From a bacterium (GTDB taxonomy: Bacteria; Margulisbacteria; Marinamargulisbacteria; SXXA01), in the NCBI GenBank assembly GCA_010028705.1, contig RHAI01000010.1, positions 5,506 to 37,505 on the forward strand: a DNA stretch of 32,000 nt, written 5' to 3'. Positions within the stretch are counted from its first letter, which is position 1. The number at the start of each line of letters is the position of its first letter. The position numbers were made by a program, and so were the translations under genes. Positions 17,083-32,000 of the stretch are shown piece after piece. The notes under the pieces were generated by a model. It was not told the origin of the DNA. It worked only from the letters and a program-made list of their open reading frames with translations, and ran no database searches.

Positions 17083-17457
17083 TTATGTGGTGGGTCCGGA
17101 GGGTTTCCCACGTTTAGATTTGGCCATTTTATCGAGCTGATATACAAAAGCTAAAACTTCAGCAACCAACGTGTAAAGCTCGGCAGGTATCTCAGAATTG
17201 AGGTCAAGTTTAGCTAGCAAGTCCGTCAGCGTTTCGTCTTCAAAAAACGGAATTCGATTTTCTTCCGCAAGTTCAAGTATTTTTTCAGCGACAGTTGCTT
17301 TGCCCGTAGCGACAATTTTGGGCGCTTTGTCTTTTCCTACCTGATATTTGATTGCAATCGCTTTGAGGTCTTTTTTCTCGGGAAGTTGCAATTCGTCAAG
17401 GTGACGTTTTAATTTGCGAGCTTTTTTATTTAAAAGGGATTGCGGTATTTTTTTCAT
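17083..17457 (-). CDS. stand-alone FlhB C-terminal-fragment-like protein (YlqH-type, EscU/YscU/HrcU family)
   Basis: 124 aa. AIAIKYQVGKDKAPKIVATGKATVAEKILELAEENRIPFFEDETLTDLL....IPAELYTLVAEVLAFVYQL matches the part of FlhB downstream of the autocleavage site. No NPTH motif and no TM domain are present. Start overlaps the upstream gene stop by 4 nt. Confidence 0.8.
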   Translation of the reverse strand: MKKIPQSLLNKKARKLKRHLDELQLPEKKDLKAIAIKYQVGKDKAPKIVATGKATVAEKILELAEENRIPFFEDETLTDLLAKLDLNSEIPAELYTLVAEVLAFVYQLDKMAKSKRGKPSGPTT

Positions 17458-18743
17458 ACTTCGGTATTGATCCTTGATAAGTTATCTAAATTAAGTTTAG
17501 GAAGTATCAAATTGCGGATAGAAATTGGCTTGTCGGAGGTTTGTAACCCAGCGAGTTCATAGTTTTGTACGGATAATTGTTCTTTGAATTCACCAATCCA
17601 TTGTGTGAGCAACATCCGGCTGTCCGTTTTGGATGTGTTGACTTGCATCCAAACCTTTTTATCCAATACATCAAGCGTGATGCACATTTCGCCTAGATCT
17701 TGAGTTTCAAATTTTATTATGACACGGGTTTTCTGTGGGTTGTATTCAGTTTTCTTTTTCAGAGGATCTTTTCGAATTAGTAATTCGATCGATGATTTTC
17801 CGTTCATCCAGGGATTAGGGAATTGCCAGTATCCAAATCGATCAGTGATTCCTGTTTGGGCGATTTGTTCGGACATTATAGCTTGGCTTGTTAACGCTTC
17901 TAGAAATCCGCTAATGTCATGTTGTAATTGCTGAGATGCTTCGAGGATCCGTTTCGCGGAGGGCGAATCGCCATGATCCAGACCAATTTTTTGACGCAAA
18001 CCGCCTAAAAACTCAAGCATCGATTTGAAGTCATTGATTAATTCGGTCCGCGACGCGGGATTCCAGTTCGCCTTTTCCTTCGAAGATTTTGAGAACTTTT
18101 TAAGCGACTCATCTAAATCGCCGAGAATAGATGTCAGCCCTGTGAGTAGCCCTGTGGTAAATAATTCGCTGCTCCAATTCAAGTTTAATTTAAAGTTTGC
18201 CATCGCGTTTTGGAGTTGTTGAAATTGTTGGCTAATTTCAAGCTGGTTGTTAAGAAAATGGCCGATTATATCCACGCTTCTGGGTGCTTCGGCCAGGCCT
18301 TTTGATACACTGACGACCGACGATTCTAGCGAGTTATTTGCTTTTCTGCCCTTTAATAATGTTTGTACTGTCTCAAAATTTTGGGCAGATGCCTCTAAGC
18401 CAAATTGTAATATCGATGACATTATTTGGATGTTTTCCGAGGTGGGGGGATGTTTAATTTGAACAAGTTGATCCACAATGTCGGATCGTGAAATCGGGCG
18501 AGATACCGTCTCTCTGGGTTGTGTTGGGGACGTCGGATCGTTTTTAGTTGTCGGTTTTGATGCCGCCACTTTGGTGGTAGTTTCAACCGATCCAGGGGCT
18601 CCAATATTTTTGTTTATACCCTGAGCTTCCTCGATTGAAAACGTCTTTTTAATGCCCGATGTGTCATCCGCTTTGGTGGTCGGTTTGACCGAAGATTCAA
18701 AGTAACCGCCGCTTCTTCGAGAACTTGATACACCTAAATCCAT
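17454..18743 (-). CDS. FliK-like (flagellar hook-length control-like) protein
   Basis: 429 aa. The N-terminus is disordered and Thr/Pro/Ser-rich, the middle is helical, and the C-terminal block (RVIIKFETQDLGEMCITLDVLDKKVWMQVNTSKTDSRMLLTQWIGEFKEQLSVQNYEL) follows the FliK C-terminal (Flg_hook/T3S4) pattern. GAGGTG Shine-Dalgarno. Confidence 0.6.
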   Translation of the reverse strand: MDLGVSSSRRSGGYFESSVKPTTKADDTSGIKKTFSIEEAQGINKNIGAPGSVETTTKVAASKPTTKNDPTSPTQPRETVSRPISRSDIVDQLVQIKHPPTSENIQIMSSILQFGLEASAQNFETVQTLLKGRKANNSLESSVVSVSKGLAEAPRSVDIIGHFLNNQLEISQQFQQLQNAMANFKLNLNWSSELFTTGLLTGLTSILGDLDESLKKFSKSSKEKANWNPASRTELINDFKSMLEFLGGLRQKIGLDHGDSPSAKRILEASQQLQHDISGFLEALTSQAIMSEQIAQTGITDRFGYWQFPNPWMNGKSSIELLIRKDPLKKKTEYNPQKTRVIIKFETQDLGEMCITLDVLDKKVWMQVNTSKTDSRMLLTQWIGEFKEQLSVQNYELAGLQTSDKPISIRNLILPKLNLDNLSRINTEV

Positions 18744-19758: not shown

Positions 19759-21060
19759 ATGGAGAAAATGATGGTTTTGTCTGAACAAATGTTTCAATCT
19801 GCTCGCCGGATATTAGTCGGTGGGGTAAATAGCCCGGTACGAGCATTTAAGAGTGTGGGTGGAACCCCTGTCTTCTTTAAAGAAGGTTACGGGTCTCGGT
19901 TAGTGTCCGTTGATGATCATGAATTTATTGATTACGTACTCTCGTGGGGGCCAATGATTTTGGGTCACGCATTTCCTCCGGTTGTCGAGTCGATTGTATC
20001 TGCGGTTCACCGAGGCCTGTCGTTTGGAGCTCCGACTGAAGCGGAGACAATTTTGGCCGATTTGATTCACGAATTTTTCCCCTCAATGGAGCGAGTGCGT
20101 TTTGTCAATTCCGGAACCGAAGCCTGTATGAGCGCGATTCGTTTAGCTCGGGGTGTTACGGGGCGCCGCCGAATACTAAAATTCGAAGGGTGTTACCATG
20201 GTCACGCCGATGCGTTATTAGTTAAAGCCGGGTCCGGTGGACTGACTCTTGGGTGTCCGGATAGTGCGGGGGTGTTAAGTGAGTGGGCGCAGTGGACATC
20301 GATCGCGCCTTACAACGATTTGGAGTCGGTTCGTAAGTTGTTTGCGAACGTTGGGGATGATATTGCTGCAATTATTGTGGAGCCAGTTGTTGGAAATATG
20401 GGTGTGGTGCCGCCCAACCCAGGATTCTTACAAGGCCTCCGTGACATCGCGAGTGCTCATGGGACTCTGTTAATTTTTGACGAAGTGATGACCGGATTCC
20501 GAGTCGCGCTGAAAGGGGCCCAACATAAGTATGGGGTAGTGCCAGATATTACGTGTTTAGGAAAGGTGGTTGGGGGTGGATTGCCATGTGCTGCATACGG
20601 TGGCCGGGCCGAATTCATGGAATATTTGGCGCCTGTGGGCCCGGTCTATCAGGCTGGAACGTTATCGGGCAATCCCGTCGCAATGGCAGCGGGCATTTCG
20701 ACGCTTACAGCATTAAAGACGAGTAATCACTTTGAACGAGCGGAATCGCATGCATCACATATTGTTGCCGGGATGCGCCAGTGGATAACGGCTCATGGTT
20801 TGCCGTTGACTGTTAGTCAGGTGGGGACGATGTGGACTCTGTTTTTTTCAGATACGACGGTTTTTAATTTAGCCACTGCACAACGGTCGGATACCAGACG
20901 GTTTTCGCTATATTATCGTGCAATGTTAGACCGGGGCGTTTACCTTGCACCCTCACAATTTGAATCTAATTTCACCTCGTCTGCCCACACGCTCACTGAT
21001 GCGGACTTTTTTATTAGTTCATTTGAGAAGAGTTTGGATTTGGAAATATTCGGGAAATAA
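19759..21060 (+). CDS. hemL: glutamate-1-semialdehyde 2,1-aminomutase
   Basis: 433 aa with GGVNSPVRAF, DYVLSWGPMILGH, FDEVMTGFR and the PLP-Lys context CLGKVVGGGLP. ATG 19771, with GGAG 6 nt upstream, is an alternative start. Confidence 0.93.
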   Translation: MEKMMVLSEQMFQSARRILVGGVNSPVRAFKSVGGTPVFFKEGYGSRLVSVDDHEFIDYVLSWGPMILGHAFPPVVESIVSAVHRGLSFGAPTEAETILADLIHEFFPSMERVRFVNSGTEACMSAIRLARGVTGRRRILKFEGCYHGHADALLVKAGSGGLTLGCPDSAGVLSEWAQWTSIAPYNDLESVRKLFANVGDDIAAIIVEPVVGNMGVVPPNPGFLQGLRDIASAHGTLLIFDEVMTGFRVALKGAQHKYGVVPDITCLGKVVGGGLPCAAYGGRAEFMEYLAPVGPVYQAGTLSGNPVAMAAGISTLTALKTSNHFERAESHASHIVAGMRQWITAHGLPLTVSQVGTMWTLFFSDTTVFNLATAQRSDTRRFSLYYRAMLDRGVYLAPSQFESNFTSSAHTLTDADFFISSFEKSLDLEIFGK

Positions 21061-21125
21061 TGGTCCATTCATTCATTTCACATTCGAATGTGTTGATGCC
21101 TATTTCGATATTGCGCTTGCTCGTT

Positions 21126-21131
21126 TATAAT
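21126..21131 (+). promoter_or_regulatory. candidate -10 box (TATAAT) for the TPR/FliG-like/motAB operon
   Basis: A perfect TATAAT lies 28 nt upstream of ATG 21160. Only a weak -35 (TTTCGA at 17-nt spacing) is present. Confidence 0.25.
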
Positions 21132-21159
21132 GAGGCAATCGCGAAGGGAGTTTGAAGTT

Positions 21160-22191
21160 ATGGGTTCTGAAATTAAGGGTAGTTTCAATACCGTTTTGAT
21201 ACTTGCGTGGTCCGTGGGGTTCCTAATCGTGGGTTCTCCATTATTGCTTGCTCAAACGGCGGTTTCGTCTCCTTTGAAGCAATCGCAAGCTGCCGCTGCA
21301 TCATCGCTGAAGAAAGAGGCTCCCCTGACGGATGATGAAATTTTCCAGTTTCAACAAAAATACAAAGACGCCCTGGCCGCCAAACGATTTGACGAGGCCT
21401 TGATTTTGGTCCGTAAGTTGCCTGATTCAAGCCTGTCTCGGCCTCAGCGCAAAGAAATGACATCATTGCTACTGTTTGATTCAGTCGAACAAAAAGTGGC
21501 GAGTTCATCGTCCATGTTTGCCAAAGAAGACGAGTTGGATGATGCGACAAAAAAGATGGTTCAGAAGTTATATAAAGAGGCGGAATCAGCGTTTATTACG
21601 AACCAAACGGAATTGTCCCGTGATATTTTGATTCATATTTTATTCCTGCATCGTCAGAATCTCCGGGCTAAATTTTTGTTAGAAGAAGGGCTTGATTTGA
21701 AAGCAGGGTCATACAAGATTGAAAATATGGAGGCGAAATACTGGAATAAATCCTCTATTAGCTTTTATGGTGGAAATTACCAGCAGTCTGTTGATTGTCT
21801 CCAAGCATTGTCCTTTTTCGACAAGGATAACCCAACTGTTTATGAACGTATGGGCTCGGCGTATTACATGATGGGCGAAAAAGAGCGTGCGATTAGCGCC
21901 TGGAACACGGTGCTTTTCTTGGATCCAGGAAACGCTGAGATTCAAGAGATAATTAAAAAAACTCAAGAGATGATTGCCGAGGATAAGGAAGAAGCTAAGC
22001 GGGACCGAGCCAAGCCAAAGGCGGCGCAAAATGTTAACCTTGCAGATACTCAATTAATGGGGAAGTTTCCGAAGCAGGATCAAGCGTATGAGTTTGCTAA
22101 CTCATTACGTAAGCAAGGGGTCGATGCAATCGTTACGGAAGAAGATGATGGGAAATGGGCCGTTCGGACCCCCAAAAAAGGATCGAAATAG
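21160..22191 (+). CDS. membrane-anchored or secreted TPR-repeat protein with a short SPOR-like C-terminus
   Basis: Hydrophobic N-terminal segment (FNTVLILAWSVGFLIVGSPLLLAQ). TPR units include YGGNYQQSVDCLQALSFFDKDNPTVYERMGSAYYMMGEKERAISAWNTVLFLDPGN. The C-terminal QLMGKFPKQDQAYEFANSLRKQGVDAIVTEEDDGKWAVRT has a beta-alpha-beta-beta pattern like half a SPOR domain. The ORF track starts at 21130, but ATG 21160 has a GGGAG Shine-Dalgarno 9 nt upstream. Confidence 0.7.
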   Translation: MGSEIKGSFNTVLILAWSVGFLIVGSPLLLAQTAVSSPLKQSQAAAASSLKKEAPLTDDEIFQFQQKYKDALAAKRFDEALILVRKLPDSSLSRPQRKEMTSLLLFDSVEQKVASSSSMFAKEDELDDATKKMVQKLYKEAESAFITNQTELSRDILIHILFLHRQNLRAKFLLEEGLDLKAGSYKIENMEAKYWNKSSISFYGGNYQQSVDCLQALSFFDKDNPTVYERMGSAYYMMGEKERAISAWNTVLFLDPGNAEIQEIIKKTQEMIAEDKEEAKRDRAKPKAAQNVNLADTQLMGKFPKQDQAYEFANSLRKQGVDAIVTEEDDGKWAVRTPKKGSK

Positions 22192-22203
22192 AAAGGGATT
22201 ATT

Positions 22204-23664
22204 ATGCTCAAGTGCTTGTCTCGGTTGTTTGTAGTATTGGTTAGTCTAATTCTTGCAATTCCGATTTTTGCGAGTCCAGACCAAATTGCCATTGAAGAGC
22301 AGTTGGCAACACGCTTACAGAGGTCATTAGATTCTATTTATGGACCGAACAACTTTGTTGTCCGAGTTGATGTTTCGTTGTCGGCCCCGAGTTATCAGGT
22401 TCGTTATACGGCTCAATCGAAAGCCGCTGTTTCTGGCGAGTCAAAGACTTCGGCAAAAGTTAACATTATGCCTGGATATCCGGTGATTAGAAATTTAGGT
22501 CCCGAGACGATGAAACAGCTTCCGTTTGATTCGGTTACTACCTATGCGACTCCGGCGTTGCAATCGATTACTGTGCACCTGCTCATTAACAAGTCTTTCC
22601 CCAAAAGTCAGGCTGGTCGGGCCCAAGCTATTGTCAAAGAACTTCTAAATTGGAAAGATGGTCGCGATAAAATTGAGGTTGCCTATAAGCCGTTTATTGA
22701 TCAAGCGGCACCCGTTCAAAAAATCGAAATCGAAAATCAAGGCGACAAATTGTTTTCGACTCAAAATATTTTCTACATGATTTTCGCCGGTTTGGCACTA
22801 GTTTTTATGATGCTTTATGGGTATTTTTCGGGTCGGACATCGAAGACGCTCAATGCTCTGTCCGTGGCCGGGCCGGCTAGTTCTGGCGGTGGAGGTGGCG
22901 CCGCTCCAAGCGTAACCGTCAGCCCGTCGATTGAGCTTCCCAAGGGTTCCGGAGGTGGTGGCGATATTAAAATTTCGAACGCACCCCCCGTTAAGCAATA
23001 TTTCGATTTTATTAGTGACGATACGTTGGATAAGCTCACCTATCTCTTAAAAAAAGAGAATGTTGGTCCTGATAATCTTAGCCTAATCGTTGGTTTTTTA
23101 CGTCCCGATTTGGCGGCTAAGCTATTGACCCAATTTGATGTGAAGATACAGGCCGCAATTGCCTTGAATATTATCGATCAAAAAATGATTAATCGGGCGG
23201 TACTCGATAAATTAGAATCTCAAATAAAAGGAGCAATCGAGTGTCTGAGCGGTGGCGAATTATCATTCAAATCGATTTATTCAACAGTCTCTAGCTCAAA
23301 TAAAAAACAGCTGTTAGCCCTTCTCGAAAAATCCTCACCCGAAGGATTTAAGAAAGTTCGGAATAATATCGTGCTGTTTGATGATTTAGCAGTTCTTGAT
23401 GACGAAGAAATTAAATTATTGTTATCTGAGGTCCGTGCCGAATTGTTTGCTGTAGCTTTGGCCTCATCGGATCCTAATCTGTACGATCGGTTTGATCGCA
23501 ATATGACCCGAAACGCCAAGGAAGTTATATCCCAGTTTTTAGAGATTCGAGGCGCCAATATTGGTGTTGATGAGATTGAAAAAGCACGCACCAATATTTT
23601 AGATATTGCACTGCGGTTGGAGCGAGACGGACGAGTTCAGATCTCCGCTAAATTGCGGAAGTAA
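22204..23664 (+). CDS. membrane protein: periplasmic FliF/YscJ-like ring-building module + TM helix + Gly-rich linker + FliG-like middle and C-terminal domains
   Basis: 486 aa. Signal/anchor is MLKCLSRLFVVLVSLILAIPIFA. RBM-like pattern: IEEQLATRLQRSLDSIYG..FVVRVDVSLS ... ITVHLLINKS....AGRAQAIVKELLN...KIEVAYKPF. TM helix is IFYMIFAGLALVFMMLYGYF followed by R/K. Linker is SSGGGGGAAP...GSGGGG. ARM-like segment is LSLIVGFLRPDLAAKLLTQFDVKIQAAIALNII. The C-terminus (VLFDDLAVLDDEEIKLLLSEVRAELFAVALASSDPNLYDRFDRNMTRNAKEVISQFLEIRGANIGVDEIEKARTNILDIALRLERDGRVQI) is collinear with the FliG C-terminal domain. Confidence 0.65.
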   Translation: MLKCLSRLFVVLVSLILAIPIFASPDQIAIEEQLATRLQRSLDSIYGPNNFVVRVDVSLSAPSYQVRYTAQSKAAVSGESKTSAKVNIMPGYPVIRNLGPETMKQLPFDSVTTYATPALQSITVHLLINKSFPKSQAGRAQAIVKELLNWKDGRDKIEVAYKPFIDQAAPVQKIEIENQGDKLFSTQNIFYMIFAGLALVFMMLYGYFSGRTSKTLNALSVAGPASSGGGGGAAPSVTVSPSIELPKGSGGGGDIKISNAPPVKQYFDFISDDTLDKLTYLLKKENVGPDNLSLIVGFLRPDLAAKLLTQFDVKIQAAIALNIIDQKMINRAVLDKLESQIKGAIECLSGGELSFKSIYSTVSSSNKKQLLALLEKSSPEGFKKVRNNIVLFDDLAVLDDEEIKLLLSEVRAELFAVALASSDPNLYDRFDRNMTRNAKEVISQFLEIRGANIGVDEIEKARTNILDIALRLERDGRVQISAKLRK

Positions 23665-23685
23665 TTTAGAGGAAAGGAGTAGGGC

Positions 23686-24459
23686 ATGATAGGACTGTAT
23701 GTTGGGTTTTTAGTTGTATTATGGATTATGTTTGAGTTAATCGGAGTCGATGCGAACGCCAAGCTGTTTTTGAGTAAAGAAGCCTCGGTTGTCGTTGTGG
23801 GGGGGTTAGTTAGTGCGACGTTAATTAATTTCCCAATTACCCAGGTCAAAAAAATTGGAAGCTGGATGAAGGTCGTATTTAAGGCTCCCAAAAAAGATTT
23901 TTTGGAGGAAATTGCCTTATTGCTTCGCTTATCGCAAAAGATGAGTCGAGAGGGTAGACAATCGTTGGAGCCTGAAATTGAAAAGATAAATGACGGGTTT
24001 TTGAAGGCGGCGATGACTCTAGTCATGAATCGCGTGGAACCCCGTGAAATTAAAAGCTTGCTTAAAGAAATGATTGAACAGTCAGGAAGCCGTCACGAGC
24101 AGGGTATTCATTATTTTGAACAAATGGCCAAGTATTCTCCTGGATTAGCATTGATTGGTACGCTTTCCGGGTTGGTAAAATTATTGGCCAACGTATCTGA
24201 TCCGAAGACAATTGGTCCGAACATGGCTTTGGCACTGGTGTGTACATTTTATGGTGTAACATCGGCTAATTTGATATTTTTACCGATGTCTGGCCGATTA
24301 AAGGTCTCAAGTCACGTTGAAGCGATTCATAAGGAGCAACTTGTTGAGGCGGTTGTCGCAATGGCATCGGATGAACTTCCGATTGTTGTTCAAGAGAAAC
24401 TTTACATGTTGCTAACCTCCAAAGATCGCACCTTGGTAAGTAAAAAGCTAGGAGTTTAA
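23686..24459 (+). CDS. motA: flagellar-type stator protein MotA/PomA
   Basis: 257 aa. It has four TM segments with a large loop between TM2 and TM3. Conserved Pro-containing helices are YSPGLALIGTLSGL and ALALVCTFYGVTSANLIFLPMSGRLK. Strong GGAAAGGAG Shine-Dalgarno. Confidence 0.85.
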   Translation: MIGLYVGFLVVLWIMFELIGVDANAKLFLSKEASVVVVGGLVSATLINFPITQVKKIGSWMKVVFKAPKKDFLEEIALLLRLSQKMSREGRQSLEPEIEKINDGFLKAAMTLVMNRVEPREIKSLLKEMIEQSGSRHEQGIHYFEQMAKYSPGLALIGTLSGLVKLLANVSDPKTIGPNMALALVCTFYGVTSANLIFLPMSGRLKVSSHVEAIHKEQLVEAVVAMASDELPIVVQEKLYMLLTSKDRTLVSKKLGV

Positions 24460-24462
24460 TTC

Positions 24463-25209
24463 ATGGGACAGAAATTCCAAACGGAAGTAGAAAATTTTTA
24501 TGTTTCGTTTTCGGACTTGCTGTCTCTTCTATTAATTTTTTTCGTATATCTGTTTTCGATGTCGTCTATTGATTCCGAAAAGTATACCCAGGCGTCAGAG
24601 TCCATTAGCCAGGAGTTTTCAAGCGAGCAAAAAAATAGTGGTAATATGCCCTATAGTATACCAGTTCCCCCGGGGGGGCAGGCGGATAAACGAATGCGGA
24701 GTGCAGAAGGTATACTGGTGTCTAAGTTAAAAGCCCAGATTGAGAGTGAAAAACTTGACGGCCAGGCCAAATTAGAGATTTCCCCCAAGTCTGTTAAGGT
24801 GGTCTTATCCTCCCCGGTGTTGTTTGCGTCCGGGAGTTCCGATCTTAGTGCTGAAGGTGCTGTATTGCTTGGAAAATTTGGTCCCATTATTAAGCAAGTC
24901 TTGAATCCTGTTGTTATTGAAGGATTCACTGATAACGTTCCTATTCACAATAGTCGCTTCGACAGCAACTGGGAGTTGTCGTTTCAACGGACCTTGTCTG
25001 TAATGAGGTATTTTATCGACAAGTTTTCCTTCAGTCCCGAACAATTGTCCGGGACAGGTTTTGGTCAGTATCGCCCTTTAGTACCCAATACTTCGGACGA
25101 AAACCGAGCCCGAAATCGTAGGATTGAAATATCTATAATTAGAGACTATAACCTTCCGGAGATAGCCCCTGATAAGGTCCTTGAAAAGGATCCTCCCAAA
25201 TCTAAATAA
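24463..25209 (+). CDS. motB: flagellar-type stator protein MotB (OmpA-like peptidoglycan-binding C-terminus)
   Basis: 248 aa. The N-terminal TM carries the conserved channel Asp (YVSFSDLLSLLLIFFV). The OmpA-like domain is VVIEGFTDNVPI....SNWELSFQRTLSVMRYF....GFGQYRPLVPNTSDENRARNRRIEISI. Starts 3 nt after motA. Confidence 0.85.
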   Translation: MGQKFQTEVENFYVSFSDLLSLLLIFFVYLFSMSSIDSEKYTQASESISQEFSSEQKNSGNMPYSIPVPPGGQADKRMRSAEGILVSKLKAQIESEKLDGQAKLEISPKSVKVVLSSPVLFASGSSDLSAEGAVLLGKFGPIIKQVLNPVVIEGFTDNVPIHNSRFDSNWELSFQRTLSVMRYFIDKFSFSPEQLSGTGFGQYRPLVPNTSDENRARNRRIEISIIRDYNLPEIAPDKVLEKDPPKSK

Positions 25210-25216
25210 TTCCCTT

Positions 25217-26542
25217 TTAGTTGAATATTCCCGAGTCTAAGAATTCTTTATTAGACTTGGTGTGCCTCAGTATTTTGATAAGCTCTTCAATCGCACTTTC
25301 GGAGTCGATATTTTTGCGGAGAAGGTATGCTTTTTTAAGCGTTTCTTCGTTAAGGAGGAGCTCTTCTTTTCGAGTTCCGGAATTGATGATGTCAATCGCT
25401 GGAAAAATGCGCCGATTCGCTAGCTTTCGGTCAAGATGGAGTTCCATGTTACCTGTACCTTTAAATTCTTCGTAGATAATGTCATCCATTCGGGACCCTG
25501 TATCTACTAGAGCTGTTGCGATGATTGTCAGACTTCCTTCTTGCTCGATCTTTCGAGCGCCTCCGAAGAATCGTTTTGGTTTATGGAGCGAACTAGGGTC
25601 TAATCCGCCCGATAGTGTTCGTCCCGACGGTGGGACGACCAGGTTGTACGCTCGTGCTAAGCGAGTGATACTGTCGAGTAGGATTACGACATCTTTGCCG
25701 CATTCGACAAGGCGTTTGGCGCTGTCGAGTACTAGTTCTGAAATTCGTACATGTTGTTCCGGGGGTTCATCAAAGGTGGAGTAAATAACTTCTCCTTGGA
25801 CCGACCGCTCCATATCGGTTACCTCTTCGGGGCGCTCGTCGATCAATAGGACTTTGATTATAACTTCGGGATGATTGATTGAAATCGCATTAGCGATCTC
25901 TTTCAGTATTGTTGTTTTTCCCGCTTTCGGTGGGGATACGATTAGTGACCGTTGCCCTTTTCCGATTGGCATCAACATATCCATTAATCGGCCGGATATT
26001 GGCACGCTATCTATTTCAAGCTTTAATTGTTCATAGGGATATACCGGAGTTAGATTGGAAAATAGAGTCCGCTCTTTAATTTTTTCCGGGTCCTCCCAAT
26101 TTATTGCCTCAACTCGTAGCAATGAAAAATATCGTTCACCATCCTTGGGTGGGCGTACCTGCCCCGATATCGTATCTCCGGACGAAAGACCAAACCTGCG
26201 GATCTGAGTTTGTGACACATATATATCTTCCGAGCTTGGTAAGTAATTGTTGGTTCGTAGAAACCCATAACCATCGGCAAGTATTTCCAGAACTCCCCGA
26301 GCGAATATGAGTCCATTGGATTCGGTTTTTGCTTGTAATAATTTAAAGATAAGGTCATTTTTTTTGAGTAGCTTGTGTTCCGGGATATTTAATTTTTGAG
26401 CTAAAGTATGTAGGTCTTTTAAGTGTGACTTCTGAAGTTCGACAATATCGAGTGATCCATCGTTTTCGTGAAGTGCTTTTATCTCTTCGTCGGTTTTCAG
26501 TTTGCGTTTTTCCATAATCTGGATAGCTCTCCTAGGCGCCAC
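25217..26542 (-). CDS. rho: transcription termination factor Rho
   Basis: [15 protein letters not shown] (RNA-binding domain), Walker [27 protein letters not shown], and [31 protein letters not shown]. The longest ORF starts at GTG 26542. ATG 26515 (MEKRKL..) is an alternative start. Confidence 0.92.
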
Positions 26543-26618: not shown

Positions 26619-27596
26619 TTAACTACTTAGTATTCTCAATATATCTCTAGCGGCGTAAGTAATAATTAGGTCGGCGCCGGCACGTTTAAGCGAAATTACG
26701 GATTCCATTATTATGTCGCGATCGTTGGCTAAATTATGTTTAATGGCGAGCTGGAGCATCGAGTATTCTCCTGATACCTGGTAGGCAACAATGGGTGTTT
26801 TTATCTGATCCCGGAGTTCACGTATAATATCAAGGTACATCATACCAGGCTTAACCATGACTAAGTCGGCACCTTCGGAAATATCCTGCACGGTTTCTAG
26901 TATCGCTTCTCGCCGTTGTGTGGGCGCTATTTGGTGGTGCTTTCGGTCGCCTATAAATTGGGTACCCGATCCCGCGGCATCGCGAAACGGACCATATAGT
27001 GAACTTGCATATTTTGCCGAGTAGGCGAGTATTCCAGTGTGATTATGACGGGCGTCGTCCAATGATTGGCGTATCGCCTGGACGGCCCCGTCCATCATGC
27101 CAGATGGTGCAATAAAGTCGGCGCCAGCATTCGCATATGAGAATGCTATTTTTTTCAAGCAATCGAGGGTGGCGTCGTTATCGAGACCTCGGGTGGTTAA
27201 TATTCCGCAATGTCCGTGGTTGGTATACTCGCACAAACAACAATCTGCAAAAATCACGATATTTGGCACCCGTTGTTTAATCCCTTTAATTACTGTTTGG
27301 ACGCCACCCTGCGGATTCCATGCTGAGGTGCCATGCGCGTCTTTTTGCCGAGGAATTCCAAAAATTAATACGCCTCTTAGGCCTGAGCGGTATGCCGTTT
27401 CCACTTCATTAATCGCGATATCGGGCGGGTATTGGAATACTCCAGGCATTGATGGTACTGGGACAGGGGCGGCGATGTCTTCCCGAATAAATAATGGCCA
27501 AATTAGGTCGCTTGGATCGATTCGTGTTTCAGCGAGTAATTCGCGAACGCCGAGGGTTCTGCGGACTGTATGAAATCGTTTAATTTTTTGCTGCAT
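26619..27596 (-). CDS. hemB: porphobilinogen synthase (delta-aminolevulinate dehydratase), Zn-type
   Basis: 325 aa with the Cys-rich metal site DCCLCEYTNHGHCG and the Schiff-base Lys contexts VMVKPGMMYLDII and DFIAPSGMMDG. Confidence 0.93.
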   Translation of the reverse strand: MQQKIKRFHTVRRTLGVRELLAETRIDPSDLIWPLFIREDIAAPVPVPSMPGVFQYPPDIAINEVETAYRSGLRGVLIFGIPRQKDAHGTSAWNPQGGVQTVIKGIKQRVPNIVIFADCCLCEYTNHGHCGILTTRGLDNDATLDCLKKIAFSYANAGADFIAPSGMMDGAVQAIRQSLDDARHNHTGILAYSAKYASSLYGPFRDAAGSGTQFIGDRKHHQIAPTQRREAILETVQDISEGADLVMVKPGMMYLDIIRELRDQIKTPIVAYQVSGEYSMLQLAIKHNLANDRDIIMESVISLKRAGADLIITYAARDILRILSS

Positions 27597-28314
27597 TTTG
27601 TTTTCTATGGTCGATTATTTTTTTAATGATGTCTCGTTGAGTCGGTGTGTCTGATATCAATTTATTTGAGCATTTCAAATAGCGTAACGTTTGTTGGCCA
27701 ATCGCTAGATGAACTTGTTGAGGGAGGTCCGTTGGAAATTGATTGAAAAAACTTCGAGCAACGGAGCCGCTAAAATGAATGACATAATCATACTCAAGCG
27801 GTGAATTAATCGCAATCGTTAGGGGTAGAGTCGTATAAATTGCGATTGGATATACTGAGCGACATGATCCTAGCCAGTCGGTAGTCGATAGCTCTGAGCG
27901 AGGATGAATCCATAGTTCGGATGTCAGTTCAGTTGAGAAGTCCTCCATGATGGCGGCCGAAGTGGGGGTCGATGGAAATCGTATGTTGTGCGCTGGGTAT
28001 CCCGCGTTCAGAAATGGAGCGGCTGTTTTTGGTCCGATGCATATGATTTTTTTGTCGCATATTTTTTGGTAGATTTCTCGAGTTGCCAATACTATTTCAG
28101 TCGCATAGTGACTCGTAAATATGATTCCGTCAGCACGAGTTAATAGTGCATTGGAAATTGACCGTTCCCATTTCGGTAAGGCGATCGTGGTGATCGCGGG
28201 CACAGCGTCAAAGTGTCCGCCTTCGGATTCAATTCCAATCTGTAACTCCCGTACTGTCGCTATGTCGCGAAGAGCGAGAACTCTGGCGCCTAGTAGAGCG
28301 GGTTGAGTTTCCAT
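27580..28314 (-). CDS. hemD: uroporphyrinogen-III synthase
   Basis: 244 aa with a weak but typical HEM4 pattern (IIFTSHYATE, ICIGPKTAAPFLNAGY, VIHFSGSVARSF). It sits between hemC and hemB and overlaps both. Confidence 0.72.
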   Translation of the reverse strand: METQPALLGARVLALRDIATVRELQIGIESEGGHFDAVPAITTIALPKWERSISNALLTRADGIIFTSHYATEIVLATREIYQKICDKKIICIGPKTAAPFLNAGYPAHNIRFPSTPTSAAIMEDFSTELTSELWIHPRSELSTTDWLGSCRSVYPIAIYTTLPLTIAINSPLEYDYVIHFSGSVARSFFNQFPTDLPQQVHLAIGQQTLRYLKCSNKLISDTPTQRDIIKKIIDHRKQNAAKN

Positions 28315-30268: not shown

Positions 30269-31147
30269 TTGAAATATTGGGCGGTTTTCGTTAGTATCCT
30301 CCCCGTGACGCGACCAAAATTTTCAATCCAAACGATTAGTTCGACCCCCATTCCATCCGTTGTCACGGTGTTTCTTTTTTTTGTGATGTTTGTAATTTTG
30401 CTCTCTGGGGAATCATTCGCTGTGTTCAATGAAAATTACCAAGAGTTTCAAGATCCATCGATCCGAACCGTGGTTCAGAGCATGCGTGCTACTCAGATCC
30501 ATTATAACAACGCGTTATTATACACCATGAATGTCGACACGCCCGGTTATATTGAGATCGGTGGATACAACTCCCTCGACCGTGACGGAGTCATCCAAAT
30601 GATCCCGTTTTATCGATGGCGGGCGGGGCCTGTAGTCGAAACGTTGCGCCCACTCGATTTTTATATCGATGCGGTAGGCAAAGGTTTTTTTCAGGTGTCG
30701 TTGCCGACCGGATTGGGCTTTACTCGCGATGGTCGATTTACGTTGGATTCTCGGCGAAAATTAGTTATGTTAGCGGGAAATTTCCCGGTGTTGGGTGAAC
30801 GAGGAGAAATTTTTTTGCCGGAGGGGGACGAGATTGCCGTATCTAAAACCGGCTTGATTTTTGTGGATGGGGCACCCGTTGACAGAATGAAGGTCGTTGT
30901 TTTCACCGAAAAAGGGATCAATCAATTGGACACAGTGAACGGTAGCATTTTTATTTTAAGTGGCGAGGGAGAATTGAACTCGGCCGCCGATTATTCTGTT
31001 CGGCAGGGCTTTATCGAACAGAATAACATTATAAAGGCCTTAATTGGGGATATTTCCTCGGCAAAAAACACCTATGAAGCTTCGGCGAAAGCTGGGAAAG
31101 CGATTATTAAAGAGATGAATTCAGCCATCCAATTGGGTGCGCCTTAG
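30269..31147 (+). CDS. flgF: flagellar basal-body rod protein, FlgF/FlgG family (start uncertain)
   Basis: N-terminal rod motif SMRATQIHYNNALLYTMNVDTPGY, central GFTRDGRFTLDSRRKLV, and a C-terminal rod heptad region VRQGFIEQNNIIKALIGDISSAKNTYEASAKAGKAI. The TTG at 30269 lacks a Shine-Dalgarno. In-frame ATG 30386 or GTG 30422 are more plausible starts. Confidence 0.7.
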   Translation: MKYWAVFVSILPVTRPKFSIQTISSTPIPSVVTVFLFFVMFVILLSGESFAVFNENYQEFQDPSIRTVVQSMRATQIHYNNALLYTMNVDTPGYIEIGGYNSLDRDGVIQMIPFYRWRAGPVVETLRPLDFYIDAVGKGFFQVSLPTGLGFTRDGRFTLDSRRKLVMLAGNFPVLGERGEIFLPEGDEIAVSKTGLIFVDGAPVDRMKVVVFTEKGINQLDTVNGSIFILSGEGELNSAADYSVRQGFIEQNNIIKALIGDISSAKNTYEASAKAGKAIIKEMNSAIQLGAP

Positions 31148-31196
31148 GTTGACATTGAACATACGGATATCGTCTGAAATTACAGGAGGTTAATTA

Positions 31197-32000
31197 ATGA
31201 TTTCACAATTATTTATGGCAAAAAGTGCTTTGATCGCATACCAGCGGAAAATGCAGGTAGTCGTTAATAATATTTCAAACGCTCAAACGGTTGGCTACAA
31301 ACGTCGGTCAGTTGAAATGGAAAGTTTGTTCCCCTTAGTGTTTGAATCGGTAATTAATGATGGCGACGAGAGTACGGCAGGGACATCGCGAAGCCGGAAG
31401 CGTTACCTCGAGTATGGACAAGGTGTGCGGGTGGCGGACATTCGGAAGGATATGAGTCCCGGAAGTATTGAAGTGACCAATCAAGATCTTGATATGGCGA
31501 TTGATGGGGCGGGCTTGTTCCAGCTTCGGTTGAGTGATGGAACTGTAGCTTACGGCCGTGCCGGCAATTTTCATGCTGATCCGGATGGGAATGTAGTGGA
31601 TCCAAATGGTAACCCTCTTGAGCCGAATCTGAAATTGCCCCGGGAGTATTCGGATGTCATTATCAATGAAGAAGGGAAGGTGTTTGTTCAGAGTAATGGC
31701 GATCCAAATCCGAGAGAAATTGGTCAGGTGACCCTTGCAATTTTCCCAAATCCGGCGGGCTTGAAAGATATCGGTCAAAATCTATATGTTCAAACCGCTG
31801 CTTCGGGAGACCCTAGTTTTCAAATTCCTGGACGCGGATTGGCGGGGTCGTTACGGCAACGTGCACTCGAATTTTCGAATGTGAATGTGATTGAAGAGAT
31901 GATGAATATGGTGTTAACCCAGCGCGCGTTTGATTTGACGATTAAGTCAATTAACTCTGGCGATCAAATGTTGAAGAGCGGTAGTGATTTGGGTAAATAG
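31197..32000 (+). CDS. flgG: flagellar basal-body distal rod protein FlgG
   Basis: 267 aa with NNISNAQTVGYKR, LDMAIDGAGLFQL, YGRAGNFHADPDGNVVDPNGNPL and the C-terminal LEFSNVNVIEEMMNMVLTQRAFDLTIKSI. AGGAGG Shine-Dalgarno. The stop codon ends exactly at 32000. Confidence 0.9.
   Translation: MISQLFMAKSALIAYQRKMQVVVNNISNAQTVGYKRRSVEMESLFPLVFESVINDGDESTAGTSRSRKRYLEYGQGVRVADIRKDMSPGSIEVTNQDLDMAIDGAGLFQLRLSDGTVAYGRAGNFHADPDGNVVDPNGNPLEPNLKLPREYSDVIINEEGKVFVQSNGDPNPREIGQVTLAIFPNPAGLKDIGQNLYVQTAASGDPSFQIPGRGLAGSLRQRALEFSNVNVIEEMMNMVLTQRAFDLTIKSINSGDQMLKSGSDLGK

What the first reader, a model, noticed from the sequence alone, without database searches (positions are those of the whole stretch)
21160..25209. 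Compact four-gene operon: TPR/SPOR-like periplasmic protein, FliF::FliG-like fusion, MotA, MotB
All four genes are on the + strand with gaps of 12, 21 and 3 nt, and each has its own Shine-Dalgarno. A TATAAT box lies upstream of the first gene, and the cluster is closed by the convergent rho gene. MotA (4 TM, conserved Pro helices) and MotB (channel Asp, OmpA-like domain) look like an intact ion-driven stator. The operon thus encodes a stator, a dedicated membrane-embedded FliG-like partner and a candidate periplasmic scaffold. It sits away from the other flagellar genes in the window (fliK-like at 17-18.7 kb, flgF/flgG at 30-32 kb). No fliM/fliN/fliF is adjacent. It could be a minimal self-contained rotary or force-transducing module, a stator-parking or clutch device, or a lineage-specific replacement for the MS-ring/C-ring top.
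Basis: inference. Interest (0 to 1): 0.8.

Follow-up and report, generated by a model that had tools for sequence, protein, structure and literature searches.

The report
Membrane-anchored FliF–FliG fusion beside MotAB
An uncultured Margulisbacteria genome encodes, next to its flagellar stator genes, a protein that joins a piece of the flagellar membrane ring (FliF) to the torque-receiving half of the rotor protein FliG; relatives' normal fliG gene lacks that half, so this fusion may be how these bacteria turn their flagella, which would be a new design for a well-studied motor.

Summary
They are a secreted TPR protein (21160-22191), a 486-aa fusion protein here called FUS (22204-23664), MotA and MotB. 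FUS consists of a signal peptide, a FliF RBM3/S-ring-like periplasmic domain, one TM helix, a Gly-rich linker and FliG middle plus C-terminal domains.

The cluster is not a self-contained unit. TPR and FUS were adjacent in every related Margulisbacteria locus that held FUS. motAB follows only in some, and it comes in two types about 28% identical to each other. Other loci have rho or housekeeping genes downstream.

An exhaustive HMMER search shows FUS belongs to a large unnamed family (211 representatives at E<=1e-30). In two more distant contigs of unidentified lineage, family members again sit beside motAB.

Key finding: a relative carries FUS and a canonical fliF on one contig. In four related contigs the gene after fliF encodes only FliG_N plus part of FliG_M. 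FliG_C occurs only in FUS proteins across about 0.5 Mb of fetched loci.

Best reading (about 0.5): FliG is split, and FUS supplies a membrane-anchored torque ring driven by MotAB. This has not been shown for whole genomes. FUS also lacks the canonical torque-helix charges.

The parts
21126..21131 (+). TATAAT string upstream of gene 1 (candidate -10 box, unsupported)
   Evidence: The sequence is read. The promoter scan reports no -35/-10 pair here, and the region has fewer promoter-like sites than shuffles.
21160..22191 (+). Secreted TPR partner protein (343 aa). It has an N-terminal signal-like hydrophobic segment, helical TPR-like repeats, a charged linker, and a C-terminal ~40-aa beta-alpha-beta-beta unit with weak similarity to half a SPOR domain.
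   Evidence: Pfam TPR_2/TPR_11. SPOR is sub-threshold. The AF2 single-sequence model is, and Foldseek returns only generic TPR matches. It lies directly upstream of the fusion gene in every Margulisbacteria locus that held FUS.
22204..23664 (+). FUS: a 486-aa FliF(RBM3)-TM-FliG(MC) fusion protein
22204..22272 (+). FUS aa 1-23: signal peptide-like helix that ends in a small residue (..IFA|SPD)
   Evidence: Alignment A1 shows a conserved -1 Ala/Gly/Ser before the conserved E31 block. The model has a helix at aa 2-17. Cleavage is inferred, not tested.
22276..22713 (+). FUS aa 25-170: periplasmic FliF RBM3/S-ring-like domain. The order of elements is alpha-beta-beta, then an insertion, then beta-beta-alpha-beta. 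The conserved insertion reads NILPGYPVIKNL..LPFDSVT and lies where FliF carries its beta-collar.
   Evidence: PF08345 hits occur in 12/32 members, with P0033 aa 85-135 matching profile 88-142 and P0021 aa 40-69 matching profile 1-30. P0155 matches the full profile 1-147 at 2.7e-11. Foldseek matches FliF S-ring chains at 1e-5 to 1e-4. hhalign to the lineage's own FliF aligns in register but weakly.
22759..22839 (+). FUS aa 186-212: the single transmembrane helix
   Evidence: The AF2 model has a helix at aa 186-216, and this is a hydrophobic block in A1.
22840..22974 (+). FUS aa 213-257: Gly-rich disordered cytoplasmic linker
   Evidence: pLDDT is below 50 for aa 213-257. The region has low complexity in A1.
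22993..23238 (+). FUS aa 264-345: FliG middle (ARM_M)-like domain in which the EHPQ motif has degraded to E-N-V-G
   Evidence: Pfam FliG_M. The PDB profile alignment to T. maritima FliG is, and the residue table is.
23251..23256 (+). Invariant Gly350-Gly351, corresponding to the FliG M-C Gly-Gly hinge
   Evidence: These are invariant columns in A1. They align to the GG of T. maritima FliG.
23323..23643 (+). FUS aa 374-480: FliG C-terminal (torque) domain fold. The five canonical charged residues are replaced: K264->A, R281->N, D288->Q444 (nearly invariant in the family; Glu in two loci), D289->F, R297->G.
   Evidence: Pfam FliG_C 1.3e-18. Foldseek matches 1qc7 with target-normalised TM 0.85-0.94 and rmsd about 1 A.
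23686..24459 (+). MotA, 'type 1' flagellar-type stator A subunit (257 aa)
   Evidence: Pfam MotA_ExbB. NCBIfam MotP/MotA models score below their cut-offs. The best PDB match is Clostridium sporogenes MotA at 2.7e-40. The E98 equivalent is kept and the R90 equivalent is Ser.
24463..25209 (+). MotB (248 aa) with plug, TM Asp (..SFSDLL..) and OmpA-like peptidoglycan-binding domain
   Evidence: Pfam MotB_plug 3.7e-13 and OmpA 3.3e-16. NCBIfam MotS/MotB-type models are the best hits.
17083..18743 (-). FliK-like (429 aa) and FlhB C-domain-only (124 aa) genes. In relatives L011/L012 these directly follow FUS or motAB.
   Evidence: Pfam Flg_hook and Bac_export_2, and TIGR00789.
30422..32000 (+). flgF and flgG, the start of the rod/ring gene block. 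In relatives this block continues to fliE-fliF and the truncated fliG.
   Evidence: Pfam. L030, a second assembly of the same species, continues with flgA-flgH-flgI. L012, L033, L034, L037 and L038 continue to fliF and the FliG_NM gene.

Best explanation
The cluster encodes the torque-generating interface of an unusual flagellar motor in which FliG is split between two genes.

The gene in the normal fliG position, after fliF, keeps only two parts: the FliF-binding N domain, and an ARM_M-like segment with a QKPQ(I/V)xAF motif in place of EHPQTIA.

The rest of FliG, a middle-like domain, the Gly-Gly hinge and the C-terminal torque domain, is carried by FUS. FUS holds these under the inner membrane by its own TM helix and by a periplasmic domain derived from the ring-building RBM3 module of FliF.

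In this model FUS assembles as a ring, or co-assembles with the FliF S-ring. It presents its FliG_C domains to the cytoplasmic face of MotA5B2 units encoded immediately downstream. Ion flow through MotAB then turns this ring and, with it, the MS ring and rod.

The secreted TPR protein is always encoded just upstream. It is proposed to bind the periplasmic part of FUS, as an assembly factor or as a scaffold that positions the stators.

Shown here:
- the domain architecture of FUS;
- the constant TPR-FUS pairing;
- the recurrent FUS-motAB linkage, including in two more distant contigs;
- FUS and a canonical fliF on the same contig in one relative;
- truncated fliG in four related contigs;
- absence of any other FliG_C domain in all fetched loci.

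Inferred: that FUS is the only FliG_C source in these genomes, that it forms a ring, that it rotates, that it contacts MotA, and the role of the TPR protein.
For: (1) Architecture. FUS combines FliG_M and FliG_C with a FliF RBM3-like domain and one TM helix. This is the natural counterpart of engineered FliF-FliG fusions reported not to impair flagellum assembly and rotation (PMC4768692).

(2) Flagellar context. In L011 and L012 the pair heads the flagellar supercluster. L012 carries FUS and a canonical FliF N-terminus (TM1 + RBM1) on the same contig. A 95%-identical database protein carries PF01514.

(3) Truncated fliG. In L033, L034, L037 and L038 the gene order is the same as in L012 and the window. 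The gene after fliF encodes FliG_N (33.9 and 29 bits, above the cut-off of 25) plus profile positions 1-43 of FliG_M. It then stops or runs into an acidic low-complexity tail. The products are 204, 227, 338 and 210 aa, with a similar Phe-containing C-terminus. The FliF C-terminus looks canonical (..NPELIAQVMQQWL..) by my reading, recalled rather than tested.

(4) FliG_C distribution. HMM and phmmer searches of all six-frame ORFs of at least 40 aa in every fetched locus (about 0.5 Mb) find FliG_C only in FUS proteins.

(5) Link to motAB. motAB lies directly downstream of FUS in several Margulisbacteria lineages, as two MotA/MotB types about 28% identical to each other. The link recurs in two more distant contigs: L029 has FUS-X-flbD-motA-motB-motB, and L032 has FUS-motA-motB-motB.

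(6) Matching losses at the interface. The canonical contact pairs are MotA R90 with FliG D288/D289, and MotA E98 with FliG R281 (PMC12505986). Margulisbacteria FUS has Q-F/Y at 288/289 and N/S at 281. The adjacent MotAs have S/T/H or Q at the R90 position. Type 2 MotA also lacks E98. In L029 both sides keep the canonical residues.

(7) Rosetta-stone fusion. In Riflemargulisbacteria one 911-aa protein joins a TPR module to a FUS-type protein, which places TPR and the RBM3-like domain together in the periplasm.
Against: - No whole genome could be scanned, so a full-length fliG elsewhere is not excluded.
- The truncated fliG was seen in relatives, not in the window's own genome. Those four contigs do not themselves show FUS within 10 kb.
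- FUS lacks all five conserved torque-helix charges and the FliM-binding EHPQ motif. A non-torque role is therefore plausible.
- motAB adjacency is not constant.
- The 911-aa fused form carries an N-terminal SLH-like motif (one repeat, 26.7 bits). If that motif binds the wall, the protein would be stationary.
- The MotA/FUS residue co-variation rests on three lineages, and L032 does not fit it (MotA has K, FUS has Q-M).
- Distant family members sit beside giant proteins and OMP-TPR proteins rather than flagellar genes.
Confidence: 0.5

Rival explanations
1. FUS, its TPR partner and MotAB form an autonomous, non-flagellar envelope machine powered by ion flow. MotA5B2 would push on the FliG_C domains of a membrane ring or transducer. 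The force would pass through the TM helix and the RBM3-like domain to periplasmic or outer-membrane partners, for example to move or export a very large surface protein. This would be analogous to Ton/Tol or to the GldLM gliding motor. In the window it merely lies among flagellar genes.
For: - The family is large, and full-length members reach well beyond the close Margulisbacteria homologues (211 representatives at E<=1e-30).
- In L028 and L029 the upstream partner is an outer-membrane-barrel-like (UPF0164) + TPR protein. The neighbours are giant proteins (14,454 aa and more than 3,521 aa) and long coiled-coil proteins.
- L031 has a giant protein of at least 4,104 aa next to an SLH-TPR-FUS gene.
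- L032 has a PD40/Tricorn beta-propeller, a CHU_C-domain protein, and FUS-motA-motB-motB, with no flagellar gene within 10 kb.
- Margulisbacteria FUS lacks the FliM-binding and torque-helix motifs of a true rotor protein.
Against: - In Margulisbacteria the pair is embedded in, or heads, the flagellar gene cluster.
- The fliF-adjacent fliG lacks FliG_C in four related contigs, so some other source of FliG_C is needed.
- L029 has flbD, a flagellar gene, immediately before motA.
- The MotA search returned mainly one continuous orthologue series from 100% down to 50% identity. It gave no clear separate series for a dedicated stator alongside a flagellar one, although it would have missed the type 2 MotA.
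- No giant protein or OMP-TPR gene lies near the window cluster.
Confidence: 0.2
2. FUS and the TPR protein are stationary accessories of an otherwise canonical flagellar motor. They would form a lineage-specific scaffold, docking ring, brake or parking site for MotAB units, comparable to the TPR-containing stator scaffolds of other motors. The FliG_C-like domain would bind MotA without transmitting torque. A normal full-length FliG would be encoded elsewhere.
For: - FUS has lost all five torque-helix charges and the EHPQ motif, yet keeps the fold.
- Its constant partner is a secreted TPR protein with a weak SPOR-like end.
- A fused relative carries an SLH-like motif, which suggests wall attachment and hence immobility.
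- From established knowledge, not tested here: periplasmic TPR/Sel1 proteins scaffold stators in Campylobacter (PflA/PflB), Vibrio (MotX) and spirochetes (FlcA).
Against: - The only fliG-position genes seen in the lineage lack FliG_C, and no second FliG_C was found in any locus.
- The adjacent MotAs have themselves lost the R90-position charge. That is unexpected if they still drive a canonical FliG.
- RBM3 homology points to the rotor-side ring of FliF, not to any known stator scaffold.
Confidence: 0.2
3. The juxtaposition of motAB with TPR-FUS has no functional meaning. motAB is a mobile two-gene unit that landed there in some lineages, and FUS acts without MotAB.
For: - motAB stands alone among housekeeping genes in L007 and L008.
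- motAB is absent downstream of FUS in about half of the loci.
- Relatives with 80%-identical FUS differ in whether motAB is present.
Against: - FUS-motAB adjacency recurs with two MotA/MotB types within Margulisbacteria, and in two further distant contigs.
- From established knowledge, FliG_C has no known partner other than MotA/PomA.
- The intergenic gaps of 21 and 3 nt indicate co-transcription.
Confidence: 0.05

Closest known systems
Engineered FliF-FliG fusion proteins of Salmonella (full-length and deletion fusions) and Vibrio alginolyticus (PDB 8z4d/8z4g)
   Same: One polypeptide joins the MS-ring protein, through its C-terminal TM helix, to FliG. [quoted passage not shown] From my own recollection, not checked here, the deletion-fusion also lacks the FliF C-terminal peptide and FliG_N, as FUS does. 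The Vibrio fusion chain was hit by the FUS profile (8z4d_1, 4e-16) and by Foldseek.
   Different: Those fusions are laboratory constructs. They keep TM1, RBM1 and RBM2 and replace the cell's only FliF and FliG. FUS has only a signal peptide plus an RBM3-like domain. It coexists with a separate canonical FliF and has non-canonical torque-helix and EHPQ residues.
Chlamydiaceae natural FliF-FliG fusion (~330 aa; Bergeron 2016, PMC4768692)
   Same: It is a naturally occurring single protein with a FliF-type periplasmic ring domain, a TM helix and a cytoplasmic FliG-derived domain.
   Different: The Chlamydia protein has the SctJ-like RBM1/RBM2 region and only a FliG_M-like domain. It has no RBM3, no FliG_C and no MotAB, and it occurs in a non-flagellated organism. 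FUS has RBM3 + FliG_M + FliG_C and sits next to motAB in a flagellated lineage.
Canonical FliG (Pfam FliG_N/FliG_M/FliG_C; TIGR00207)
   Same: FUS has the FliG_M and FliG_C folds and the Gly-Gly hinge. The profile E-value to T. maritima FliG_MC is 3e-29, and the target-normalised TM-score to the 1qc7 C domain is 0.85-0.94.
   Different: FUS has no FliG_N and is membrane-anchored. EHPQ is reduced to a lone Glu, and all five torque-helix charges are replaced. The TIGR00207 score is 70.8 bits against a cut-off of 226.7.
Periplasmic TPR/Sel1 stator scaffolds of complex flagellar motors (Campylobacter PflA/PflB, Vibrio MotX/MotY, spirochete FlcA). These are recalled from established knowledge and were not tested here.
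   Same: Each is a secreted or periplasmic TPR-type protein encoded with motAB in a flagellated diderm, with a possible wall-binding end.
   Different: No sequence relationship was detected (only generic TPR hits). None of those systems includes a FliG-like membrane protein as partner.
Other 5:2 ion-driven motors with dedicated partners (ExbBD-TonB, TolQR-TolA, GldLM, AglRQS, ZorAB)
   Same: The idea is the same: a MotAB-family motor coupled to a dedicated membrane-anchored transducer that reaches into the periplasm (background in PMC12505986).
   Different: The stators here are flagellar-type, with MotB plug and OmpA domains, and the best PDB match is flagellar MotA. The partner is FliG/FliF-derived, which none of those systems has.

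Membership tests
FliG (flagellar rotor/switch protein) | FliG_C domain fold (ARM_C + six-helix torque domain) | tested here: met
   Pfam FliG_C 1.3e-18, aa 374-480. Foldseek to 1qc7 gives target-normalised TM 0.85-0.94 and rmsd 0.9-1.2 A.
FliG (flagellar rotor/switch protein) | FliG_M domain with the EHPQR FliM-binding motif | tested here: not met
   The FliG_M fold is present (5.8e-6), but EHPQ aligns to E-N-V-G. Only Glu285 is conserved in the family.
FliG (flagellar rotor/switch protein) | FliG_N domain that binds the FliF C-terminus | tested here: not met
   There is no FliG_N in the window protein. The N-terminal 260 aa are signal peptide, RBM3-like domain, TM helix and linker.
FliG (flagellar rotor/switch protein) | Conserved charged torque-helix residues (E. 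coli K264, R281, D288, D289, R297) | tested here: not met
   These map to A, N, Q444, F and G in the window protein and are uncharged across most of the Margulisbacteria clade. The contact pairs are as stated in PMC12505986.
FliG (flagellar rotor/switch protein) | Gly-Gly hinge between the M and C domains | tested here: met
   G350-G351 are invariant in 32 sequences and align to the GG of T. maritima FliG.
FliG (flagellar rotor/switch protein) | Score above the curated equivalog cut-off (TIGR00207) | tested here: not met
   70.8 bits against a cut-off of 226.7.
FliF (MS-ring protein) | RBM3 / S-ring domain (Pfam YscJ_FliF_C) | tested here: met
   The window protein itself is below Pfam detection. 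However, 12/32 family members hit PF08345 (best 7.9e-7). Distant members match the whole profile (P0155 positions 1-147, 2.7e-11). Foldseek matches FliF RBM3 rings at 1e-5.
FliF (MS-ring protein) | YscJ/FliF domain (RBM1-RBM2) and N-terminal TM1 | tested here: not met
   No PF01514 hit in any member. Only about 145 periplasmic residues are present. The lineage's true FliF does carry PF01514 (8.5e-44).
FliF (MS-ring protein) | C-terminal cytoplasmic peptide that binds FliG_N | tested here: not met
   The TM helix is followed by a Gly-rich linker and then directly by FliG_M.
Flagellar stator MotA/PomA | MotA_ExbB channel domain and close similarity to solved flagellar MotA | tested here: met
   Pfam 8.4e-24. 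Match to C. sporogenes MotA at 2.7e-40 over aa 2-253. The Pro173 and Pro222 equivalents are present (..YSPGLA....FLPMSG..).
Flagellar stator MotA/PomA | Cytoplasmic-loop charges R90 and E98 | tested here: inconclusive
   The E98 equivalent is kept. The R90 position is Ser, with Arg at the next residue. In type 1 orthologues this position is S/T/H, and in type 2 it is Q with E98 also lost.
Flagellar stator MotB | Plug + TM Asp + OmpA-like peptidoglycan-binding domain | tested here: met
   MotB_plug 3.7e-13 (aa 10-52) and OmpA 3.3e-16 (aa 120-219). The Asp lies in ..SFSDLLSLL...
SPOR domain (gene 1 C-terminus) | Match to Pfam SPOR at the gathering threshold; full double beta-alpha-beta-beta fold of about 70 aa | tested here: not met
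   E=0.42 and 11.4 bits (cut-off 21), covering profile positions 10-47 only. The best among 19 homologues is 0.0034. The model shows a single beta-alpha-beta-beta unit of about 40 aa.
TPR repeat proteins (gene 1) | TPR motifs above Pfam thresholds | tested here: met
   TPR_2 at 29.8-30 bits (cut-off 27) and TPR_11 at 29.6-29.7 bits (cut-off 26.8). Foldseek returns only generic TPR matches such as MamA.
Chlamydia-type FliF-FliG fusion | SctJ-like RBM1/2 + TM + FliG_M only, about 330 aa, no stator genes | tested here: not met
   FUS has an RBM3-like rather than an RBM1/2 domain, plus FliG_C, and motAB lies next to it. The description of the Chlamydia protein comes from PMC4768692.

The most novel reading that the evidence does not exclude
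The FUS family (FliF-RBM3 + TM + FliG_MC) would be the rotor or transducer of an ancient, widespread MotAB-driven envelope machine that is not a flagellum.

It often has a TPR or OMP-TPR partner. It sits beside motAB in two distant contigs of unidentified lineage, and beside giant surface-type proteins in three others.

This would be the first use of the FliG_C-MotA torque interface outside flagella. In Margulisbacteria the flagellum would have secondarily come to depend on it, or to share it, after losing its own FliG_C.
Probability: 0.2. Interest if true: 0.95.

Novelty: new variant of a known kind. Interest (0 to 1): 0.85.

Why it matters
FliG is one of the most conserved core proteins of the bacterial flagellum. 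Its three-domain layout is FliG_N on FliF, FliG_M on FliM, and FliG_C facing MotA, and it is generally treated as a constant feature of flagellar motors.

A lineage with the following features would be a new rotor architecture:
- the fliG gene has lost the torque domain;
- that domain sits instead on a membrane-anchored protein built from FliF's ring module;
- the classic electrostatic residues are replaced on both the rotor and the stator side.

It would give natural test cases for three questions. How is torque passed from the C-ring top to the MS ring? Are the conserved charges needed? How did the FliF-FliG interface evolve? It would also be the natural counterpart of the long-known engineered FliF-FliG fusions.

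Separately, the search exposes a large unnamed protein family (211 representatives at 50% clustering with E<=1e-30) that links FliG-type domains to MotAB in uncultured organisms. This opens the question of whether MotA-FliG coupling is used outside flagella.

Tried and rejected
- Promoter and terminator scan of 20900-25400. It found nothing above shuffled expectation, so it gives no support for the TATAAT box or for a terminator before rho.
- Looking for a canonical FliG near FUS. hmmsearch and phmmer over all loci found none.
It was repeated with 11 sequences.
The single-sequence model is mediocre (pLDDT 61), and Foldseek gave only generic TPR hits.
- Searching for full-length Margulisbacteria FliF with the L012 fragment gave only four short fragments.
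- A neighbour-joining tree of MotA sequences. FUS-adjacent MotAs do not form one clade, so I rejected the idea of a single dedicated FUS-associated stator lineage.
- hhalign of the FUS N-domain against the lineage's own FliF gave an in-register but statistically weak match (E 0.026). It is used only as consistency, not as evidence.
- Literature searches for FliG-like + MotA, FliG paralogues, Margulisbacteria flagella and Marinamargulisbacteria found no description of this family. The only natural FliF-FliG fusion found was the Chlamydia one.
- I considered and rejected the idea that FUS replaces FliF, because a canonical fliF is present.
- I considered that the truncated fliG could be a frameshift artefact. 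I rejected this because four independent contigs share the same architecture and a similar Phe-containing C-terminus.

Full report
1. THE OBSERVATION

The window contains four tightly packed + strand ORFs at the stated coordinates, with gaps of 12, 21 and 3 nt. The ATG at 21160 is the likely start of gene 1. It has AAGGGAG 9 nt upstream, and homologues are about 345 aa. Each of the other genes has a Shine-Dalgarno-like motif.

rho converges on motB, with 7 nt between the stops. A TATAAT string exists at 21126-21131. The promoter/terminator scan gives nothing above shuffled expectation.

Pfam and NCBIfam confirm the following:
- TPR in gene 1;
- FliG_M + FliG_C in gene 2 (aa 280-344 and 374-480);
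- MotA_ExbB in gene 3;
- MotB_plug + OmpA in gene 4.

The neighbours are hemL upstream, and a FliK-like and an FlhB-C-domain-only gene at 17083-18743 (-). Downstream lie hemB/D/C/A, followed by flgF and flgG at the window's end. The rest of the window is housekeeping.

2. ANATOMY OF GENE 2 (FUS)

A search of 5.8 billion proteins gave 35 full-length homologues of 460-500 aa. The named ones are Margulisbacteria. Their alignment (A1) shows five parts:
- a signal-peptide-like N-terminus ending in a small residue;
- a conserved block of about 145 aa;
- a hydrophobic helix;
- a Gly-rich linker;
- the FliG-like half.

The AF2 model (pLDDT 74.5) gives helix 25-46, strands 51-59 and 63-68, a low-confidence but highly conserved insertion (aa 72-107, NILPGYPVIKNL..LPFDSVT), strands 110-115 and 119-128, helix 134-147 and strand 155-161. 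A TM helix follows at 186-216, then a disordered linker at 213-257 and an all-helical FliG_MC.

Foldseek against the PDB matches the C-terminal half to FliG (1lkv at 1.5e-9; 1qc7 with target-normalised TM 0.85-0.94). It matches the N-terminal domain to the FliF S-ring/RBM3-collar (7cg7_A 1.4e-5, 6sd3_Q 2.8e-5, 8zdt_A 5.3e-5, Vibrio 8z4g 3.6e-5). Weaker hits go to PrgK and SpoIIIAG.

Pfam YscJ_FliF_C (PF08345) is hit in 12 of 32 family members (best 7.9e-7). More precisely, FUS is FliF RBM3 + TM2 + FliG_M + FliG_C. It has no RBM1/2, no FliF C-terminal peptide and no FliG_N.

3. NON-CANONICAL RESIDUES

The profile alignment to T. maritima FliG and an hmmalign table show three things:
- The FliM-binding EHPQ motif is E-N-V-G, with only Glu285 conserved.
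- The Gly-Gly hinge is invariant (G350, G351).
- The five torque-helix charges (E. coli K264, R281, D288, D289, R297) are A, N, Q444 (Gln in most of the clade, Glu in two loci), F/Y and G/S.

The canonical contact pairs are MotA R90 with FliG D288/D289, and MotA E98 with FliG R281 (PMC12505986).

The window MotA is a good flagellar-type MotA (2.7e-40 to C. sporogenes MotA). It keeps the E98 position but has Ser at the R90 position. Its orthologues have S/T/H there.

4. SYNTENY IN RELATIVES

Contexts of FUS homologues came and from a scan of GTDB species genomes (19 loci, all Margulisbacteria-type MAGs). They were mapped with tblastn and ORF inspection.

TPR-FUS adjacency held in every Margulisbacteria locus that held FUS, and hemL is usually upstream. 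The downstream gene varies:
- Window-type motAB ('type 1') follows in the window, L001/2/9/10, L005 and L025.
- A different motAB ('type 2', about 28% identical MotA) follows in L011, L016, L023 and L024.
- Convergent rho follows in L003/4/6/14/17/18/20.
- Other genes follow in L013, L015, L019 and L021.

In GCA_050250935.1 FUS (L019) and type 1 motAB (L007) lie on different contigs. L011 and L012 have 80%-identical FUS, yet only L011 has motAB after it.

So the conserved core is two genes. The motAB link is recurrent rather than fixed.

5. A MUCH LARGER FAMILY

An exhaustive HMMER search with A1 found 211 cluster representatives at E<=1e-30. Most of the best 150 match over the whole profile, in proteins of 460-890 aa.

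Examples:
- P0155 has YscJ_FliF_C (full profile, 2.7e-11) + FliG_M + FliG_C.
- P0161 and P0163 have the same domains plus C-terminal TPRs.
- P0245 (Ca. Margulisbacteria GWD2_39_127, 911 aa) has an SLH-like motif + TPR + RBM3-like domain + TM + FliG_MC. This Rosetta-stone fusion places the TPR module and the FUS ectodomain together.

Contexts of distant members:
- L029: a 14,454-aa protein, then an OMP-like+TPR protein, FUS, an 800-aa coiled-coil protein, then flbD-motA-motB-motB.
- L028: a protein of more than 3,521 aa, then an OMP-like+TPR protein, FUS, and a coiled-coil protein.
- L032: a beta-propeller protein, then FUS-motA-motB-motB.
- L031: SLH-TPR-FUS, then a protein of at least 4,104 aa.

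FUS-motAB linkage therefore recurs in at least two further, more distant contigs. Some of these distant FUS proteins keep Arg/Lys at position 264 and Glu-Glu at 288/289. The L029 MotA keeps R90 and E98. FUS-adjacent MotAs do not form one clade.

6. THE DECISIVE CONTEXT

In L012 the gene order is ilvE-hemL-TPR-FUS-(1 kb)-fliK-flhB'-flgF-flgG-flgA-flgH-flgI-X-sigma-flgB?-flgC-fliE. The locus ends with the first 186 aa of a canonical FliF (TM1 + RBM1). A 95%-identical database fragment carries PF01514. FUS therefore coexists with a true fliF and does not replace it.

A second assembly of the window species shows the same flgG-flgA-flgH-flgI-X order (L030).

I used the FliF fragment to scan metagenome contigs. 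This returned L033, L034, L037 and L038, which have the same gene order through fliE-fliF.

In all four, the gene after fliF encodes the following (Pfam: L033 FliG_N 5e-8 and FliG_M 5e-7, L037 1.7e-6 and 6.5e-6; sequences and alignment for all four):
- FliG_N;
- a low-complexity linker;
- an ARM_M-like segment (Pfam FliG_M positions 1-43 of 76, motif QKPQ(I/V)xAF);
- then a stop or an acidic disordered tail.

The products are 204, 227, 338 and 210 aa, with a similar Phe-containing C-terminus. What follows is nuo genes or opposite-strand genes, not fliH/fliI. By my reading, recalled rather than tested, the FliF C-termini look canonical (..NPELIAQVMQQWL..).

I searched every six-frame ORF of at least 40 aa in all fetched loci (about 0.5 Mb). 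I used a FUS FliG_C HMM and T. maritima FliG_C. FliG_C was found only in FUS proteins.

7. INTERPRETATION

A flagellar motor needs FliG_C to receive torque. This lineage keeps rod, ring, hook-control and stator genes. The gene at the fliG locus lacks the C domain. The only FliG_C seen is on FUS, which is encoded next to motAB or at the head of the flagellar cluster.

The simplest reading is a split FliG. FliG_NM would stay on FliF, and perhaps on FliM. FUS would supply a membrane-anchored torque ring, tethered through an RBM3-like domain that could co-assemble with or dock onto the FliF S-ring. The interface with MotA would have been re-engineered, since charges are lost on both sides.

I put this reading at about 0.5 because:
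- no whole genome could be scanned;
- the truncated fliG was seen in relatives, not in the window's genome;
- FUS lacks the canonical functional residues;
- an SLH-bearing fused relative hints at a stationary protein;
- distant members sit in non-flagellar-looking neighbourhoods.

The rivals are an autonomous MotAB-driven envelope machine (0.2), a stationary stator scaffold or brake with a normal FliG elsewhere (0.2), and a meaningless juxtaposition (0.05).

8. GENE 1

The TPR protein family (alignment of 19-22 loci sequences) has a signal peptide, helical repeats, a charged linker and a conserved C-terminal block of about 40 aa (QLMGxF..AYxFAxxLKxQG..VEE.DNGKWxVKVPK).

SPOR similarity is sub-threshold. 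A single-sequence model gives a beta-alpha-beta-beta unit with pLDDT 86-90. Foldseek shows only generic TPR folds.

Its role as a periplasmic partner or scaffold is inferred from three things: constant adjacency, the Rosetta-stone fusion, and analogy (from established knowledge) to TPR stator scaffolds in other motors.

9. NOVELTY

In the searchable literature I found no description of this family or of Margulisbacteria flagellar genes. The only natural FliF-FliG fusion found is the Chlamydiaceae protein of about 330 aa, with RBM1/2 + FliG_M and no FliG_C or MotAB.

I rate this a new variant of a known kind (the flagellar rotor), of high specialist interest. There is a smaller chance that the family marks a non-flagellar use of the FliG-MotA interface.

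Noticed in passing
L033:11588-12202, L034:6153-6833, L037:11305-12321, L038:8975-9607: The gene in the fliG position after fliF encodes only FliG_N plus part of FliG_M (204-338 aa). It has a QKPQ(I/V)xAF motif and a similar Phe-containing C-terminus, and there is no FliG_C. fliH/fliI do not follow.
   Followed up: yes
L011:2715-4140, L016:4013-5468, L023:11493-12947, compared with window 23686-25209: Two MotA/MotB types about 28% identical to each other both occur directly after FUS in different Margulisbacteria lineages. Type 2 MotA lacks the equivalents of both R90 and E98. Whether one genome carries both types is unknown.
   Followed up: partly
L029:1-7823, L028:1-6182, L031:12778-22673: Giant ORFs (14,454 aa, more than 3,521 aa, and at least 4,104 aa) lie immediately next to distant FUS-family genes in three unrelated contigs. 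In L028 and L029 the TPR partner carries an outer-membrane-barrel-like (UPF0164-type) N-terminal domain, and a long coiled-coil protein follows FUS.
   Followed up: partly
L029:15680-17051 and L032:12293-13630: Tandem duplicated MotB-like genes follow the FUS-adjacent motA in two distant contigs. In L029 flbD precedes motA.
   Followed up: no
window 17083-17457 (-): A stand-alone 124-aa protein consists only of the FlhB C-terminal domain (TIGR00789 'flhB_rel', 8.6e-28). Its start overlaps the fliK-like stop by 4 nt. The fliK-flhB' pair is conserved in all related flagellar clusters.
   Followed up: partly
window 19759-21060 and relatives: hemL lies immediately upstream of TPR-FUS in nearly all Margulisbacteria loci, with a 99-nt gap in the window. 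In the window, the rest of the heme pathway genes (hemB/D/C/A at 26619-30196, - strand) separate rho from flgF. The reason for this persistent hem-flagellar intermixing is unknown.
   Followed up: no
L012:9638-10589: About 1 kb with no ORF of at least 90 aa and no motAB remnant lies between FUS and fliK. The 80%-identical relative L011 has motA2-motB2 at this position, which suggests recent loss or replacement.
   Followed up: partly
P0203 (367 aa, Ca. Margulisiibacteriota) and P0245 (911 aa, Ca. Margulisbacteria GWD2_39_127): Two further architectures occur in the same phylum: TM + FliG_MC without the RBM3-like domain, and SLH-like + TPR + RBM3-like + TM + FliG_MC in one chain.
   Followed up: partly
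window 10926-11873 (+) and 14999-15433 (+): Two conserved-looking ORFs (315 aa and 144 aa) have no Pfam match. The 144-aa gene is syntenic in L001, between coaD and RNase PH.
   Followed up: no
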